A DNA stretch of 64,000 nt from Fusobacterium paranimalis (GTDB lineage: Bacteria > Fusobacteriota > Fusobacteriia > Fusobacteriales > Fusobacteriaceae): positions 767,389 through 831,388 of the forward strand of contig OZ256152.1 of the NCBI GenBank assembly GCA_965278035.1, given 5' to 3'. The notes under the pieces are model-generated. The model was not told where the DNA came from. It did no database searches and saw only the letters and a program-made list of their open reading frames with translations. This document shows, one piece after another, positions 14,875 to 30,332 of this stretch. A program made the translations under genes and the position numbers. Positions within the stretch are counted from its first letter, which is position 1, and each line of letters begins with the position of its first letter.

Positions 14875-14893
14875 AGTATGGTTTATCCATACT
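14875..14893. promoter_or_regulatory. Operator-like palindrome, motif 1
   Basis: The sequence agtatggtttatccatact lies just upstream of the Shine-Dalgarno sequence of gene 14018..14860. Confidence 0.45.
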
Positions 14894-14912
14894 TATTATT
14901 TAAAAAAATAAT

Positions 14913-15977
14913 TTAGTCTACTATACTAAATTCTACTCTTCTACTTAACCATTTATTATTTTCTAAATTTTTTAAACTATCCATAAAGCCTTTCCTATCT
15001 TTTACAAGATACTCATTAGGATCTTTATATTTCCACAATATATTTGTACTAATACAATTAACCCCTATTTCTTTTAATAACTTATACAGTTCTTTTTGTG
15101 CTTTTTGTCCTCTTTTATCATTATCAAGCATAAGATATATCTTATTTTTTGGTATATCTTCTTCAAATTTCTTTATTAATAATTGAATATTTTGTATACT
15201 CCCCAAAGCAAGTGATTTCCTACCTGTTTCTATAATACTTAAAGCATCTATCTCACCCTCAACAATATAGAAATCTTTATTAATATTTTCTTTTTCTCTT
15301 AATTCCCATAAGTTAAATATTTGAGTGTCTCCTACTTTTCTTATTTTATCTTTTGCATTTTTATCTATGTTTCTAGCTGTAAAACAACATAGAAAAGTTG
15401 GTATAATTATAGCTTTCCATTCTCCTTTTTTAAAATTAGGGTCATAGCCAATATGATATTTTTCCTGTACTTTCTTTGAAATCCCTCTTTTAGTTAGATA
15501 ATCACAATCTTTTAAATTATCAATACATTTTTTTATATATGCTTCATATCTAGGAATTAAATATATAAGGTTTTTCCTTTCTTTATTATTTTCAACATAC
15601 CCTTCATTTTTACTTAATTCTATAAAAGTATTCTTTTTAGAGTATATAGTCTTGTTTGCATCCTCTATAAGTTCTCTATGGTTATATAGTTCATCGACTT
15701 TTTTAGCTCTTTCTTTAAAATCTTCTATTCCATACTCTTCTCCAACAAGTTTGAAAATATCATATTTTTCTCCACAAGCAAAACATTTACAAATCTTACC
15801 TGGTACAAAATAGCTCATACTCGGATTTTTATCTTCGTGTTCCTTAGAAAAACATCTCATTAGCTTACTTGTATCTATCCCTTTTAATTCTAAATATTCT
15901 CCTAAGAAATTCTTTAATTTTTTTAAATCATATACTTTCGCCATAAGACAACCACTCTCTTGTAAAGTCATTAGCAT
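14913..15977 (-). CDS. DNA primase (CHC2 zinc finger + Toprim)
   Basis: CHC2-type zinc-finger region (CFSKEHEDKNPSMSYF...CKCFACGEKYD) and a Toprim acidic motif (YIVEGEIDALSI). Confidence 0.65.
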   Translation of the reverse strand: MLMTLQESGCLMAKVYDLKKLKNFLGEYLELKGIDTSKLMRCFSKEHEDKNPSMSYFVPGKICKCFACGEKYDIFKLVGEEYGIEDFKERAKKVDELYNHRELIEDANKTIYSKKNTFIELSKNEGYVENNKERKNLIYLIPRYEAYIKKCIDNLKDCDYLTKRGISKKVQEKYHIGYDPNFKKGEWKAIIIPTFLCCFTARNIDKNAKDKIRKVGDTQIFNLWELREKENINKDFYIVEGEIDALSIIETGRKSLALGSIQNIQLLIKKFEEDIPKNKIYLMLDNDKRGQKAQKELYKLLKEIGVNCISTNILWKYKDPNEYLVKDRKGFMDSLKNLENNKWLSRRVEFSIVD

Positions 15978-18315
15978 TCCTATAAATTTCTTTTAACTCC
16001 TTTGCCTTGTTCTGTTTAGGTAGATCAGAACTAGCAATTAAACTTAAAGTTTTTTCCTTTAAATCAAGTTCAAATAGTCTACTGCCTTTCGTTGACTTAT
16101 AGTAATACTCTTTCTTTTTAGTAGCTTTTGATATTATTTCTATCTCTGTCTTATTTAGTCCAAATTTCTCATAAATAGGAATATAGTTATCTGCGAAAGC
16201 ATTTGGATTAGGTAAAAATACCTTTGTTTGACAAGCATCTAAAACTGTTGTAAATAATTTACTATTTAAAATATCTCCTAGCTCTTGTGTTGCAAAAATA
16301 ACAGAACAATTCTTCTTTCTTAATACCTTTAACCACTCTCTTATTTTTGCTGCAAATATTGGATTATCAAAAAACATCCAACATTCATCTAAAATAATGA
16401 TACAAGGATTACCATCTAAAGAATTTTCTATTCTTCTAAATATATAGGAAAGAAGAGGTGTAATCCCTTTTTTATTATTTATTACTTGATTCATCTCAAA
16501 TACTTGCCATCTTGAAAAATTTAATGTATCTTTATCTGAATCAAAATATTTTCCCAAAGCTCCACCTATCTTATATGGTATTAATGCTTCTTTGATTTCT
16601 CTATCGTTTACTGAGGTATAGAAATTTGATATTGTCCTAAGTTCAATTGGAGTTTTTGCTAAGTTATCTAATACTTTCCATATCTTTTCTTTTTGTGTAG
16701 GACTTACCTTTACATTTTCTTGCTCTAATATTTCTAATATCCAACCATAAGCCCATTCTTTTTCTTCTACTATCTCTATATTTGCGAGTGGCTGAAATGA
16801 AAGCTCATCATTTCCTAAATCATGAAATTCTCCTCCTATTGCATAAGTTAAAACTCTACTACTAGCATCTTTATCAAAGAAATATACTCTTGAATCTTTA
16901 TACTTCATAAAAGATGAAGCTATAAGACCTAAAAGAACAGATTTCCCATATCCAGTAGGTCCTACAATAGCACTATGTCCTATGTCTTCAATGTGAATAT
17001 TAAATCTAAAAGGTGTACTTCCTTTTGTTTTTGTATAGATAAGGGGAGGTGCATTTAAATGTTTATTCCAACTATCTCCTCCCCATACACTTGATACTGG
17101 TAGTAAATGGCTTAAAGTTATAGTATTAAGTATAGGCATTCTTATATTATTAGTTATATTACCTGGAATACTTCCTAAAAATGCTTCAACTGAATTTATA
17201 CTTTCTTCTATTGTTATAAATCCCATATTATTTATAGTTTTACTTATTACATCAACTCTTTCTTCAACTTCATCTATACTATCTCCGTCAACTATTAAAG
17301 TACAAGTATAAAAACCCTGTGAAACATAATCTCCTGTTGTTAGTGCTATTTGTGTTCTAACTTCATTTGCCTTATTTAAAGCATCTTCATTTAATTTTCT
17401 CGAATTTTCTTCTTTTTCTCCTGTAAGTTCTGCATAAACTCTTTGAAATAGACTTAATCTTTGTGAAAATATATTTTTATATTTTCTCTCCATCTTTGAA
17501 AGAGCTTCTAATTTAGATAGCATTAAAAACCTTGTTATCCATCTATATGGAATATTTAATCTATTTAATACATCAAAAAATCCTGGAACTGTATAATTAG
17601 GAAAACCTTGAATTGATATACATCTTATTTCCTTTCCTCTAAGTTTTGGTTTTAATCCACCTACTAAATCACTATCACAAAGATAATTTGCCATAGCATA
17701 AGGAATTTCTGGAACTATTACCTTATCTGTTTTTGTACTTACACAAGAATGAAGATAAGTATAGGTTTCTTCATCATCTAATTCTGTTACCTCTAAAAAT
17801 ATTTCTTTAAATAAATTAAGTATCTTTTTAAATTCTTTATTAAAATTTTCTAATGTCTTATCCAATATCTCGCTCTTTTTAGCATACTCTAAAAATATCT
17901 CTCCAACTTTTTTTGAATTATCAGTAGGAATTAATTGAACTATTGTTAAATAATACTCACTTTCAAAATGCTCATTTTCAAGAAAATTTAATTTTCTTTC
18001 TTTTTCAATTATATCTATTGCAAGTATTTCATTTTCTGCCTCTATATAGTCTGTACATCTCTTTCTCCTTGCTTCAACATTTAAACTCCAACCCTGACCA
18101 AGTCTTTTTATAACATCATTTAATTTAGCATTTATGTTTTTTAACTCATACACAGTAGAACTATCTAAGTCATATCCTCTATATTTTAAAGTTTTTTGAA
18201 GTGTTCCATTTTTATTTAATACTACACCTTTATCTATTAAACATATCCAGGGGACATAGCTAGATAGTTTGCCTTTTTCTTCACTATACTCTTTTAGCAT
18301 TTTATCCCTCCCCAT
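15928..18315 (-). CDS. VirB4/TrbE-family T4SS ATPase
   Basis: 795 aa. Walker A GPTGYGKS and Walker B IILDECW regions. Characteristic VirB4 size. Confidence 0.9.
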   Translation of the reverse strand: MGRDKMLKEYSEEKGKLSSYVPWICLIDKGVVLNKNGTLQKTLKYRGYDLDSSTVYELKNINAKLNDVIKRLGQGWSLNVEARRKRCTDYIEAENEILAIDIIEKERKLNFLENEHFESEYYLTIVQLIPTDNSKKVGEIFLEYAKKSEILDKTLENFNKEFKKILNLFKEIFLEVTELDDEETYTYLHSCVSTKTDKVIVPEIPYAMANYLCDSDLVGGLKPKLRGKEIRCISIQGFPNYTVPGFFDVLNRLNIPYRWITRFLMLSKLEALSKMERKYKNIFSQRLSLFQRVYAELTGEKEENSRKLNEDALNKANEVRTQIALTTGDYVSQGFYTCTLIVDGDSIDEVEERVDVISKTINNMGFITIEESINSVEAFLGSIPGNITNNIRMPILNTITLSHLLPVSSVWGGDSWNKHLNAPPLIYTKTKGSTPFRFNIHIEDIGHSAIVGPTGYGKSVLLGLIASSFMKYKDSRVYFFDKDASSRVLTYAIGGEFHDLGNDELSFQPLANIEIVEEKEWAYGWILEILEQENVKVSPTQKEKIWKVLDNLAKTPIELRTISNFYTSVNDREIKEALIPYKIGGALGKYFDSDKDTLNFSRWQVFEMNQVINNKKGITPLLSYIFRRIENSLDGNPCIIILDECWMFFDNPIFAAKIREWLKVLRKKNCSVIFATQELGDILNSKLFTTVLDACQTKVFLPNPNAFADNYIPIYEKFGLNKTEIEIISKATKKKEYYYKSTKGSRLFELDLKEKTLSLIASSDLPKQNKAKELKEIYRNANDFTREWLSYGESI

Positions 18316-29594: not shown

Positions 29595-29611
29595 TAATAT
29601 TGGAGGTATTT

Positions 29612-30301
29612 ATGGGAGAAATTATACAAATTAAAGTTGAAAAAGGTGGTATAGGTAAAACCTTTATTGCTTCTAACTTAGCTCATTTACTTGCTCTTTT
29701 AGAATATAGGGTAATTATTCTTAGTATCGATTCACAGAATAATGTATATAGCATTTTTAATAAAGTAAATCAGAGAATAAAAGGAAGTTTAAAAAAATCT
29801 ATTTTAAGTAATGAGATTTATAAAATAAAACTAAGAGAAAATTTAGATTTTATTCCTATTGAGCTATATTTAAGCTCAAATATTTTAAAAGAAGTACCTG
29901 CTTTTTTAAGAAAACTTAAAAAGAATTATGATTATATAATAATAGACAGTCTTCCAGCATTAAAAGTAGACAATATCTTTTTAGAAAACTCTGATAAGAT
30001 TATTATACCAGCACATGGTGATAAAATGACATTGCAAGGCATAATCAGTATAATAAAAGAGCATAGAGAAAAGATACATTCTATAATATTTAATAAATAT
30101 ATCAACACCAAAATTAATAGAGAATATTATAAGGAAATTAAAGAGATTTGTAAAAATAGTGGTATTTATATATCAAAACCTATAAAGAACAATGCCTTTA
30201 TCGCTGAGCTAATAGAAAAAGGTAAAACAATATGGGAAAGTAGAGCTAAAAAAATAATAGAAACACAAGAAATCTTCAAAGATATAATTAGAAGATTTTA
30301 A
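29612..30301 (+). CDS. ParA/Soj-family partition ATPase
   Basis: Deviant Walker A KGGIGKT. The ATG at 29612 has a GGAGG Shine-Dalgarno sequence. The track start further upstream is probably not used. Confidence 0.85.
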   Translation: MGEIIQIKVEKGGIGKTFIASNLAHLLALLEYRVIILSIDSQNNVYSIFNKVNQRIKGSLKKSILSNEIYKIKLRENLDFIPIELYLSSNILKEVPAFLRKLKKNYDYIIIDSLPALKVDNIFLENSDKIIIPAHGDKMTLQGIISIIKEHREKIHSIIFNKYINTKINREYYKEIKEICKNSGIYISKPIKNNAFIAELIEKGKTIWESRAKKIIETQEIFKDIIRRF

Positions 30302-30313
30302 TTTTAAATAACT

Positions 30314-30332
30314 TGTATGGTTATCCCATACT
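30314..30332. promoter_or_regulatory. Operator-like palindrome, motif 1
   Basis: The sequence tgtatggttatcccatact lies upstream of the Shine-Dalgarno sequence of gene 30348..30995. Confidence 0.45.

What the first reader, a model, noticed from the sequence alone, without database searches (positions are those of the whole stretch)
14875..30332. Recurrent palindrome AGTATGG-N5-CCATACT (motif 1) in the 5' leaders of four ICE transcription units
Four copies were found on direct reading: 14875-14893, 26444-26462, 29576-29594 and 30314-30332. Each lies between a promoter-like element and the Shine-Dalgarno sequence of a gene: the secreted coiled-coil gene, the VirB2 pilin gene (start of the T4SS string), parA, and the gene after parA. 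At parA the palindrome begins 4 nt after a TTGACT-N17-TATTAT promoter, which is an operator position. The spacer is AT-rich and the 7-nt half-sites are fixed. This suggests a dimeric repressor, for example the XRE protein at 26549..26899, co-ordinately controlling transfer and partition genes.
Basis: seen in the sequence. Interest (0 to 1): 0.6.

Follow-up and report, generated by a model that had tools for sequence, protein, structure and literature searches.

The report
Repressor-binding palindrome on a Fusobacterium ICE
A 17-bp palindrome (GTATGG-N5-CCATAC) sits just after the promoter of every main transfer and partition operon of a Fusobacterium conjugative element. It is most likely the binding site of the element's own XRE-type repressor, which is a familiar kind of circuit in an element where it has not been described.

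Summary
The invariant unit is GTATGG-N5-CCATAC, with 6-bp arms rather than 7. The window has five exact copies, not four; the extra one is at 953-971. A sixth copy lies just left of the window, ahead of the relaxase gene. A weakened seventh (GTTTGG-N5-CCAGAC, 26986-27002) overlaps the -35 of the XRE gene's own promoter.

Each strong copy lies 2-4 nt after a -10-like hexamer and 4-7 nt before a Shine-Dalgarno sequence, at the head of an ICE backbone unit:
- 295aa-SLT-topoisomerase
- relaxase
- trbJ-trbL
- virB2 through virB4 and primase
- parA
- the 215-aa gene

The arms are invariant across about 80 site variants from relatives in the F. nucleatum group, F. necrophorum and F. gastrosuis. The 5-nt spacer and the flanks drift. 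The motif is absent from all other Fusobacterium DNA examined. With its Shine-Dalgarno tail, it matched only this ICE among 185,579 species genomes. Sister element families carry different palindromes in the same promoter positions.

The best reading is an operator set for an ICE-encoded dimeric repressor, probably the DdrO-like XRE protein at 26549..26893. The binder and the transcription start sites remain untested. This is a new member of a known kind and is of moderate interest.

The parts
953..971 (-). In gene orientation it reads TGTATGG-TATAA-CCATACT. TATTAT lies 4 nt upstream of the core and AAAAGGAGG 4 nt downstream. It heads the operon 295aa (51..938), SLT, S26 peptidase, topoisomerase, which continues left of the window.
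14875..14893 (-). Operator copy S2, upstream of the trbJ/virB5-like gene 14018..14860. It heads the trbJ, 149aa, trbL/virB6, 93aa unit (12267..14860).
26444..26462 (-). Operator copy S3, upstream of the virB2/trbC pilin gene 26102..26428. It heads the long T4SS operon (virB8, virB9, virB10, coupling protein, virB11, virB3, virB4, primase; 14913..26428).
26475..26505 (-). Intrinsic terminator of the xre gene (12-bp stem followed by T7), immediately upstream of the virB2 promoter and operator. It served as an internal control: its stem shows wobble and compensatory changes across relatives, while the palindrome core does not.
26549..26893 (-). XRE-family HTH gene (114 aa from the ATG at 26893; an alternative TTG start lies at 26899). 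It is the candidate repressor. The predicted recognition helix is residues 44-52 (FPYLSHLET).
26972..27000 (-). Predicted xre promoter, TTGGAA-17-TATAAT with TG (extended -10). It is conserved in all five lineages compared.
26986..27002 (-). Weakened operator copy (GTTTGG-AATAT-CCAGAC in gene orientation). Its left arm supplies the -35 of the xre promoter. Relatives conserve it as GTTTGG-N5-CCA(T/G)AC even where the upstream flank is unrelated.
29544..29572 (+). parA promoter TTGACT-17-TATTAT, the best-defined promoter of the set.
29576..29594 (+). Operator copy S4 (TGTATGG-TTATT-CCATACT), between the parA -10 and the Shine-Dalgarno sequence. The parA coding sequence is 29612..30301.
30314..30332 (+). 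Operator copy S5 (TGTATGG-TTATC-CCATACT), in the 46-nt gap between parA and the 215-aa gene (30348..30995).

Best explanation
GTATGG-N5-CCATAC is the DNA operator of a dimeric helix-turn-helix repressor encoded by the ICE itself, most probably the XRE-family protein at 26549..26893.

A high-affinity copy sits 2-4 nt downstream of the -10 region of each backbone promoter. There are five such copies in the window and one more ahead of the relaxase, just outside it. A bound dimer would therefore cover the transcription start region. It would hold the DNA-processing, mating-pore and partition operons off together.

A weaker copy, with position 3 of the half-site altered, overlaps the -35 of the xre promoter and would give negative autoregulation.

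By analogy with plasmid R388, the expected behaviour is silence while the element is resident and a burst of expression on entering a repressor-free recipient or on induction. The inducing signal is unknown.

What is shown:
- the sites, their positions relative to genes, and their conservation
- their restriction to this element
- the XRE fold of the candidate protein

What is inferred:
- the promoters and transcription start sites
- repression as the effect of binding
- the identity of the binder
For: **Number and placement of sites**
- Five exact copies against about 0 expected, all in non-coding DNA.
- A sixth copy lies at L023:14052, ahead of the relaxase.
- All share one layout in gene orientation: AT-rich -10-like hexamer, 2-4 nt, palindrome, 4-7 nt, GGAG.
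- parA has a clear TTGACT-17-TATTAT promoter ending 4 nt before the core.

**Conservation**
- Across about 80 distinct site variants from relatives, the arms are 0-3.6% non-consensus. The spacer is 6-18% and the flanks 5-20%.
- Spacer length is always 5 nt.
- The F. gastrosuis lineage (XRE 47% and TrbC 74% identical) keeps perfect arms.

**Sequence is conserved, not just pairing**
- In the same 12 sequences, the xre terminator 20 nt upstream shows 3 wobble and 3 compensatory pairs. The six core palindrome pairs never vary.
- Six paralogous sites with unrelated flanks share identical arms.

**At least one copy acts as DNA rather than RNA**
- The xre-proximal copy overlaps the -35 (TTGGnA) of a conserved extended -10 promoter. 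In three lineages it would have a U-U mismatch if read as RNA.

**Sister families**
- They place other palindromes at the same promoters. L014, L017 and L019 have them between -35 and -10. L021 has TATAAT, 4 nt, ACAGCT-N3-AGCTGT, then the Shine-Dalgarno sequence ahead of its relaxase.

**The candidate protein**
- It matches HTH_31/HTH_3.
- Its nearest solved relative is DdrO, and its fold neighbours are DdrO, R-M controller proteins, ClgR and SinR, all of which bind palindromes as dimers.
- The recognition-helix stretch NFPYLSH is identical in the 47%-identical orthologue that keeps the same half-site.

**Restriction to the element**
-.
Against: - There is no binding, footprint, transcription-start or expression evidence.
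- Promoter prediction in 26% GC DNA barely discriminates: 52 promoter-like hits against 42 expected. Only the parA and xre promoters are convincing. The start site could lie at the first base of the palindrome, which would allow a 5'-terminal RNA hairpin.
- S5 lies in a 46-nt gap inside what may be a parA-215aa transcript and may have no promoter of its own.
- No lineage was found in which the XRE protein and the palindrome change together. All XRE homologues recovered (47-98% identical) keep both the recognition helix and the half-site. The XRE link therefore rests on co-occurrence, the autoregulatory layout and the lack of better candidates.
- The 3' flank TAAAAGGA(G/A)G is shared by S1, S2 and S6, yet S6 has no start codon behind it. 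The palindrome-only model does not explain this.
- No ImmA/IrrE-type protease or other anti-repressor was seen.
Confidence: 0.6

Rival explanations
1. The palindrome acts as RNA. It would form a 6-7 bp hairpin at or near the 5' end of each mRNA, 4-7 nt before a strong Shine-Dalgarno sequence. Such a hairpin could stabilise the transcript against 5'-end-dependent decay, like the B. subtilis aprE and ermC 5' stabilisers (from general knowledge). It could also serve as a processing or translation-control site.
For: - All strong copies are transcribed-strand-proximal, at a near-fixed distance from the Shine-Dalgarno sequence.
- The predicted hairpins have free energies of -6.5 to -11.2 kcal/mol.
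- S5 lies inside a likely parA-215aa transcript.
- The conserved 3' T and the shared TAAAAGGAG tail are strand-specific.
- The rare arm variant GTGTGG would keep a G-U pair.
- The seventh pair shows one A-U to U-A swap in L032.
Against: - With a -10 hexamer only 2-4 nt upstream, the usual start site falls inside the left arm, so primary transcripts would lack the full stem.
- The arm sequence, not just the pairing, is identical in six paralogous sites and across lineages. The neighbouring terminator shows wobble and compensatory changes while the core shows none.
- The loop is always exactly 5 nt long.
- The xre copy overlaps a -35 element and carries a U-U mismatch in three lineages.
- Sister families place the equivalent palindromes between -35 and -10, where they are not transcribed.
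- Two of the five hairpins fold no better than shuffled sequence (z = -1.05 and -0.94).
Confidence: 0.14
2. The palindromes are centromere-like sites for the 215-aa ParB-like protein encoded after parA. That protein would also act as a global regulator, as KorB does on IncP plasmids (from general knowledge).
For: - Two copies flank parA, and a small type-Ib-like ParA (229 aa) needs a centromere-binding partner.
- The 215-aa model gives weak hits to ParB, Noc, VirB and SopB DNA-binding domains.
Against: - The fold hits are not significant (best E = 0.36).
- The 215-aa proteins of L014 and L019 are 94% identical, yet their parA promoters carry different palindromes (AACCGTT-N3-AACGGTT against ACAGCT-N3-AGCTGT).
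- The putative HTH stretch GFNRMTALRYKKRAEIY is nearly invariant across families whose palindromes differ.
- The F. gastrosuis ICE has lost the 215-aa gene and has only a 55-aa parA stub, yet it keeps three intact sites. A recent deletion would weaken this last point.
Confidence: 0.08
3. The sites are operators, but the binder is neither of the above. It could be another small ICE protein, such as the basic 52-aa product of 31039..31197, which is also kept in the F. gastrosuis ICE. It could also be a host Fusobacterium regulator that the ICE exploits.
For: - Several conserved small ORFs have no assigned function.
- The 52-aa protein has a homologue in L032.
- Complete host genomes could not be scanned for the bare palindrome.
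Against: - XRE is the only classical repressor-type HTH protein in the backbone, apart from the excisionase-type HTH_17.
- The weakened copy sits specifically on the xre promoter.
- No copy was found in about 280 kb of non-ICE Fusobacterium DNA.
- Sister families have their own palindromes, which argues for element-encoded specificity.
Confidence: 0.13
4. The repeat has no function of its own. It would be a remnant of a duplicated promoter and ribosome-binding-site cassette, or a chance repeat.
For: S1, S2, S3 and S6 share extended flanks (a T-run, an AT-rich box and TAAAAGGAG), consistent with a common origin.
Against: - The arms stay invariant while the spacers and immediate flanks drift across about 80 variants.
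- S4, S5 and the xre copy share only the palindrome with the others.
- Chance expectation is about 0.
Confidence: 0.03

Closest known systems
Global repressor networks of conjugative plasmids: R388 (ArdK, KorA, StbA, TrwA; PMC3937220, PMC9723621) and IncP RK2/RP4 KorA (from general knowledge)
   Same: A short palindromic operator recurs at the promoters of several backbone operons for transfer, stability and establishment. The repressor gene is itself under the same control. This arrangement gives silence in the resident state and an expression overshoot in a new host.
   Different: Here the host is an integrated element in Fusobacteriota. The candidate repressor is an XRE/DdrO-like protein, with no sequence relationship to KorA or ArdK. 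A single motif appears to cover all backbone units, whereas R388 divides the work among several repressors. Nothing has been tested experimentally.
ImmR of ICEBs1 and Rco of pLS20, XRE-type repressors of conjugation genes in Firmicutes (from general knowledge)
   Same: An element-encoded XRE-family repressor is autoregulated and keeps the main conjugation promoter off.
   Different: ImmR and Rco act at one divergent promoter region, using several sites or DNA looping. Here single dyads are spread over at least six separate promoters. No ImmA-like protease gene was found. Homology to ImmR and Rco was not tested here.
DdrO/IrrE radiation-desiccation regulon of Deinococcus (PMC6868357, PMC6765133)
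   Same: DdrO is the closest solved relative of the XRE protein. It is an XRE dimer that binds a 17-bp palindrome found at many promoters of a regulon, including its own.
   Different: Sequence similarity is about 30% and limited to the HTH domain. The palindrome sequence differs. No COG2856 protease partner was seen. The regulon is a mobile element's backbone, not a stress response.
KorB/ParB-type centromere-operators of IncP plasmids (from general knowledge)
   Same: Palindromes are scattered over a conjugative element, including sites next to the parA-type gene.
   Different: The ParB-like 215-aa protein does not change with the palindrome across families. The sites persist where its gene has been lost.

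Membership tests
Operator set of an element-encoded global repressor (KorA/ArdK/ImmR-like logic) | The same dyad recurs at several promoters of backbone operons | tested here: met
   Six exact copies, each at the head of a separate backbone unit. All are non-coding.
Operator set of an element-encoded global repressor (KorA/ArdK/ImmR-like logic) | The dyad overlaps core promoter elements or the transcription start | tested here: inconclusive
   This is clear for parA, where the core starts 4 nt after TATTAT, and for xre, where the dyad overlaps the -35. The other promoters are only AT-rich -10-like hexamers. The promoter scan is barely above background (52 against 42.3). No transcription-start data exist.
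Operator set of an element-encoded global repressor (KorA/ArdK/ImmR-like logic) | An autoregulatory site at the repressor gene's own promoter | tested here: met
   GTTTGG-N5-CCA(T/G)AC lies over the -35 of the xre promoter. It is conserved in five lineages despite unrelated upstream flanks. This is sequence evidence only.
Operator set of an element-encoded global repressor (KorA/ArdK/ImmR-like logic) | Sites are conserved in homologous elements and specific to the element family | tested here: met
   for conservation. for absence elsewhere. for different palindromes in sister families.
Operator set of an element-encoded global repressor (KorA/ArdK/ImmR-like logic) | The protein binds the dyad and represses transcription | not testable with these tools
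   This needs EMSA or footprinting, reporter fusions and an xre deletion.
XRE-family dimeric HTH repressor (protein at 26549..26893) | HTH_3/HTH_31 domain and a five-helix XRE fold | tested here: met
   Pfam HTH_31 at 27.3 bits against a cut-off of 27, and HTH_3 at E = 1.6e-4. DdrO matches at E = 8e-6. Foldseek returns DdrO, C.BclI, ClgR and SinR with probability 1.00. The model has pLDDT 80.
XRE-family dimeric HTH repressor (protein at 26549..26893) | Dimerisation through a C-terminal region | not testable with these tools
   The model has C-terminal helices at 77-113. Only a monomer could be predicted.
REP-like or dispersed intergenic repeat | Many copies across the chromosome, unrelated to promoters | tested here: not met
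   No copies in the 30 kb of chromosome and 10.8 kb of cargo in the window, or in 238 kb of other Fusobacterium loci. The scan across species genomes found only this ICE. Complete host genomes were not scanned for the bare palindrome.
parS/centromere of a ParB-like protein | Site specificity changes together with the centromere-binding protein | tested here: not met
   94%-identical 215-aa proteins accompany different palindromes. The sites are retained where the gene is absent.
Structured RNA element (5' stabiliser or regulatory hairpin) | Pairing is maintained through compensatory or wobble changes | tested here: inconclusive
   The six core pairs never vary in 12 sequences, which says nothing either way. 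The seventh pair varies (AU 9, GU 1, UA 1, unpaired 1). The adjacent terminator does show covariation. Identical arms in six paralogous sites argue for a sequence constraint rather than a pairing constraint.
Intrinsic terminator | A GC-rich stem followed by a T-run | tested here: not met
   The scan flagged 29577-29593 and 30315-30331 as terminator-like. Their tails are TTAATATTGG and AAGTTATTTA, which are not U-tracts, and both sit at the 5' ends of genes.

The most novel reading that the evidence does not exclude
The palindrome might work at both levels. As DNA it would be the XRE operator. As RNA it would be a hairpin in the leader and in the read-through (parA-215aa) transcripts, setting the stability or translation of all ICE backbone messages. 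The shared, strand-specific CCATAC-TAAAAGGAG tail would then be part of a post-transcriptional regulon recognised by an unknown ICE or host factor.
Probability: 0.08. Interest if true: 0.6.

Novelty: new member of a known kind. Interest (0 to 1): 0.4.

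Why it matters
Fusobacterium nucleatum and its relatives matter medically, in colorectal cancer and invasive infections, and they are hard to manipulate genetically. Their conjugative elements are essentially uncharacterised.

This ICE family is common in oral and gut metagenomes. Its pilin is listed in 195 blocks of the contig collection. It carries variable defence islands and an opine-metallophore gene cluster.

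A defined operator and a candidate repressor give a directly testable switch for transfer of the element. They also offer a compact, tightly repressed promoter-operator-RBS cassette that could be reused as a genetic tool in Fusobacterium.

Conceptually, the finding extends the plasmid-style circuit of one repressor and many backbone promoters to an ICE of a phylum where no such circuit has been described. It does not change how such circuits are understood.

Tried and rejected
- **Plasmid database.** A megablast of 26000-31500 against PLSDB found no match.
- **Left end of the ICE.** No repeat of 14 nt or more of the tRNA-Leu region (33900-34060) exists elsewhere in the window. Related contigs show that the ICE in fact runs off the left edge of the window.
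- **Promoter scan.** In this AT-rich DNA it is nearly uninformative, with 52 hits against 42.3 expected. Only parA and xre are treated as defined promoters.
- **Co-variation of XRE and palindrome.** The XRE protein search gave only hits at 67% identity or above, with full-length hits at 80% or above. The metagenome scan gave only 80-98% identical loci. One 47%-identical orthologue was reached through the pilin gene, and it keeps both the helix and the half-site. No informative switch of specificity was found inside the family.
- **The 215-aa protein.** It has no Pfam or NCBIfam family. Its fold search gave only non-significant ParB-like hits. It was rejected as the binder on comparative grounds.
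- **Small ICE ORFs.** They gave no significant family apart from an ICEBs1-Xis-like 73-aa protein.
- **Paralogy of the first genes.** The 295-aa and TrbJ-like proteins behind S1 and S2 are not paralogues.
- **The copy at 31252-31268.** This 2-mismatch match (GTATGGAAAATCAATAT) lies inside the Xis-like ORF and has no palindromic right arm. It was treated as chance.
- **Literature.** Searches found no description of this ICE or its regulation.

Full report
**1. What is in the sequence**

The pattern AGTATGG-N5-CCATACT occurs exactly twice, at 14875 and 26444. With one mismatch there are five copies: 953, 14875, 26444, 29576 and 30314. All five share a perfect core, GTATGG-N5-CCATAC. The seventh position on the 5' side is A or T, so the half-site that is actually fixed is 6 bp long.

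No shuffle in 100 gave two exact 19-mers. The window holds only 13 GTATGG and 18 CCATAC in total. Two further hits appear at 2 mismatches. One, at 26986-27002, proved meaningful. The other, at 31252, lies inside an ORF, has no dyad right arm, and looks like chance.

All exact copies lie in the roughly 13-14% of the window that is non-coding.

**2. Context**

The window comes from a Fusobacterium of the nucleatum group (source names). Its GC content is about 26%.

The ICE backbone in the window contains:
- a complete P-type T4SS on the minus strand, from 12267 to 26428
- an XRE gene
- a D12 methyltransferase and a YhcG nuclease
- parA
- a 215-aa gene with no assigned family
- small ORFs, a Band7 gene, an excisionase and an integrase, ending next to tRNA-Leu

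Related contigs show that the ICE continues left of the window. The gene at 51..938 is followed by SLT, an S26 peptidase, topoisomerase III, a MobA/MobL relaxase, a methyltransferase and a large helicase. The stretch from 1580 to 11916 is cargo: an opine-metallophore and ABC transporter cluster. A sixth exact copy of the motif sits between the topoisomerase and relaxase genes at L023:14052.

Every strong copy therefore heads one backbone unit:

| Copy | Unit headed |
|---|---|
| S1 | 295aa-SLT-peptidase-topoisomerase |
| S6 | relaxase |
| S2 | trbJ-trbL |
| S3 | virB2 through virB4 and primase |
| S4 | parA |
| S5 | the 215-aa gene |

Written in gene orientation, they share one layout: an AT-rich -10-like hexamer, 2-4 nt, GTATGG-N5-CCATAC-T, 4-7 nt, then GGAG(G). 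At parA the promoter is clear, TTGACT-17-TATTAT at 29544-29572.

**3. The seventh site**

Upstream of xre, the sequence GTTTGG-AATAT-CCAGAC is followed by AAAAGTGATATAAT. Its left arm supplies a TTGGAA -35 element placed 17 nt before an extended -10.

Lineages with unrelated upstream flanks keep the same arrangement as GTTTGG-N5-CCATAC plus TG-n-TATAAT. This is the classic layout of a negatively autoregulated repressor gene with a deliberately weaker operator. At this promoter the dyad is promoter DNA, not leader RNA.

**4. Conservation and specificity**

I collected relatives through the pilin, the 295-aa protein, the XRE protein and a metagenome scan. They include F. necrophorum-like elements (XRE 83% identical) and an F. 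gastrosuis element (XRE 47% and pilin 74% identical).

Across about 80 distinct site variants:

| Region | Fraction non-consensus |
|---|---|
| Arms | 0-3.6% |
| Spacer | 6-18% |
| Flanks | 5-20% |

Spacer length is always 5 nt.

The motif is absent from 238 kb of loci from other Fusobacterium element families. It is also absent from the chromosomal and cargo parts of the window. A scan of one genome from each of 185,579 species for GTATGG-N5-CCATACT-R-AAAGGAG returned three hits. All three are in one MAG that carries this same ICE at 98-99% identity.

**5. DNA operator or RNA hairpin**

The palindromes would fold as RNA with free energies of -6.5 to -11.2 kcal/mol. Their fixed distance to the Shine-Dalgarno sequence makes a 5'-leader hairpin a serious rival. 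Five observations point to recognition of DNA sequence instead:

- The xre copy lies over a -35 element. In three lineages it would carry a central U-U mismatch as RNA.
- Sister families put equivalent dyads between -35 and -10, where they are not transcribed.
- With a -10 hexamer 2-4 nt upstream, normal start sites fall inside the left arm.
- Six paralogous sites with otherwise unrelated flanks keep identical arm sequence.
- In the same 12 sequences, the xre terminator just upstream shows three wobble and three compensatory pairs, whereas the six core pairs of the palindrome never change.

None of this replaces transcription-start mapping. I give the RNA-only model about 0.14.

**6. Which protein binds**

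The obvious alternative to XRE is the 215-aa protein encoded after the small ParA. Its model has only non-significant resemblance to ParB, Noc and SopB DNA-binding domains.

Its homologues in L014 and L019 are 94% identical, yet their parA promoters carry different dyads (AACCGTT-N3-AACGGTT against ACAGCT-N3-AGCTGT). Its most conserved, HTH-like stretch is nearly invariant across all families. The F. gastrosuis ICE has lost this gene and keeps only a 55-aa parA stub, but retains three perfect sites.

The XRE protein, by contrast:
- is present in every motif-bearing element
- has the autoregulatory copy on its own promoter
- is a DdrO-like XRE protein by sequence and by fold
- keeps the helix-3 stretch NFPYLSH unchanged in the 47%-identical orthologue that uses the same half-site

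A centre-to-centre half-site spacing of 11 bp fits a dimer binding one face of the DNA; this is an inference. I found no lineage in which the XRE helix and the dyad change together, so the assignment remains circumstantial. I put it at about 0.5 to 0.55, within the 0.6 given to the best explanation as a whole.

**7. Comparison with known systems**

The logic matches the global repressor networks of conjugative plasmids (R388: PMC3937220, PMC9723621; IncP KorA, from general knowledge). It also matches the XRE repressors of Firmicute elements (ImmR, Rco; from general knowledge). The protein's nearest solved relative, DdrO, likewise controls a multi-promoter regulon through a 17-bp palindrome (PMC6868357, PMC6765133).

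The differences are:
- the host phylum
- the integrated lifestyle of the element
- a single dyad that apparently covers all backbone units
- the absence of any recognisable ImmA/IrrE-type protease, which leaves induction unexplained

Literature searches found nothing on this ICE.

Verdict: this is a real, well-supported regulatory motif. It is a new member of a known kind and is of moderate interest.

Noticed in passing
window 18587-18603 and 31003-31019; also L017:648 and 1996, L019:2653, L021:1398: A second perfect palindrome, TGTAACAA-(C/G)-TTGTTACA. One copy lies just before the virB3 Shine-Dalgarno sequence inside the T4SS operon. The other lies just after the 215-aa gene. Unlike motif 1, it is shared with other Fusobacterium element families, as is the conserved 215-aa ParB-like protein. 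It is therefore a candidate binding site or centromere for that protein.
   Followed up: partly
L023:14052-14070, just left of the window and upstream of the MobA/MobL relaxase: The sixth motif copy is followed by the same TAAAAGGAAG tail but by no start codon. About 150 nt of unusually GC-rich sequence with inverted repeats follows, ahead of the relaxase gene. This is probably the oriT or leader region.
   Followed up: partly
window 27139-29396, compared with L006, L008 and L010 at 3459-8015 and L034 at 5341-9120: The gap between parA and xre is a variable cargo slot for defence genes. The window has a YhcG nuclease and a D12 methyltransferase. L006, L008 and L010 have AAA_21/RloB plus a Thoeris-like SIR2/TIR set. 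L034 has AAA_21/RloB plus GmrSD.
   Followed up: no
window 1580-11916: A cargo block is inserted between two ICE backbone modules. It holds a periplasmic-binding/FecCD/ABC transporter, MatE, a nicotianamine-synthase-like gene, Staph_opine_DH and SAM synthetase, which resembles a staphylopine-type opine metallophore cluster. A lysine/ornithine monooxygenase and an EamA transporter follow.
   Followed up: no
L014:9200-9290, L011:9200-9290, L017:9228, L019:9218, L021:5485, 9227 and 11131: Sister Fusobacterium elements carry their own promoter palindromes at parA and relaxase promoters: AACCGTT-N3-AACGGTT, (A/C)AGTT-ATT-AACGGTT and ACAGCT-N3-AGCTGT. Some of these elements have a divergently transcribed XRE gene. 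L017 and L019 have the dyad but no such XRE gene within the 20 kb held, so their binder is unknown.
   Followed up: partly
L032:9145-9312: In the F. gastrosuis ICE, parA is reduced to a 55-aa N-terminal stub and the 215-aa gene is missing. The operator upstream of the stub is still perfect.
   Followed up: partly
L029-L031 (CAUULU010000013.1 and CAUULU010000069.1): A MAG labelled 'uncultured Eubacteriales bacterium' carries this Fusobacterium ICE at 98-99% identity with 27-28% GC. This is either mis-binning or recent transfer.
   Followed up: no
window 30348-30995: The 215-aa protein belongs to a family seen only in Fusobacterium (101 hits) and has no Pfam or NCBIfam model. It has an invariant GFNRMTALRYKKRAEIY segment. 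Its AlphaFold model (pLDDT 73) gives only weak hits to ParB, Noc, VirB and SopB DNA-binding domains.
   Followed up: partly
window 33957-34413: The integrase end of the ICE abuts tRNA-Leu(caa), which is followed by two tRNA-Arg genes. Relatives of the family sit at other loci, such as next to infC-rpmI-rplT in L032. No attL repeat of the tRNA end is present in the window.
   Followed up: partly
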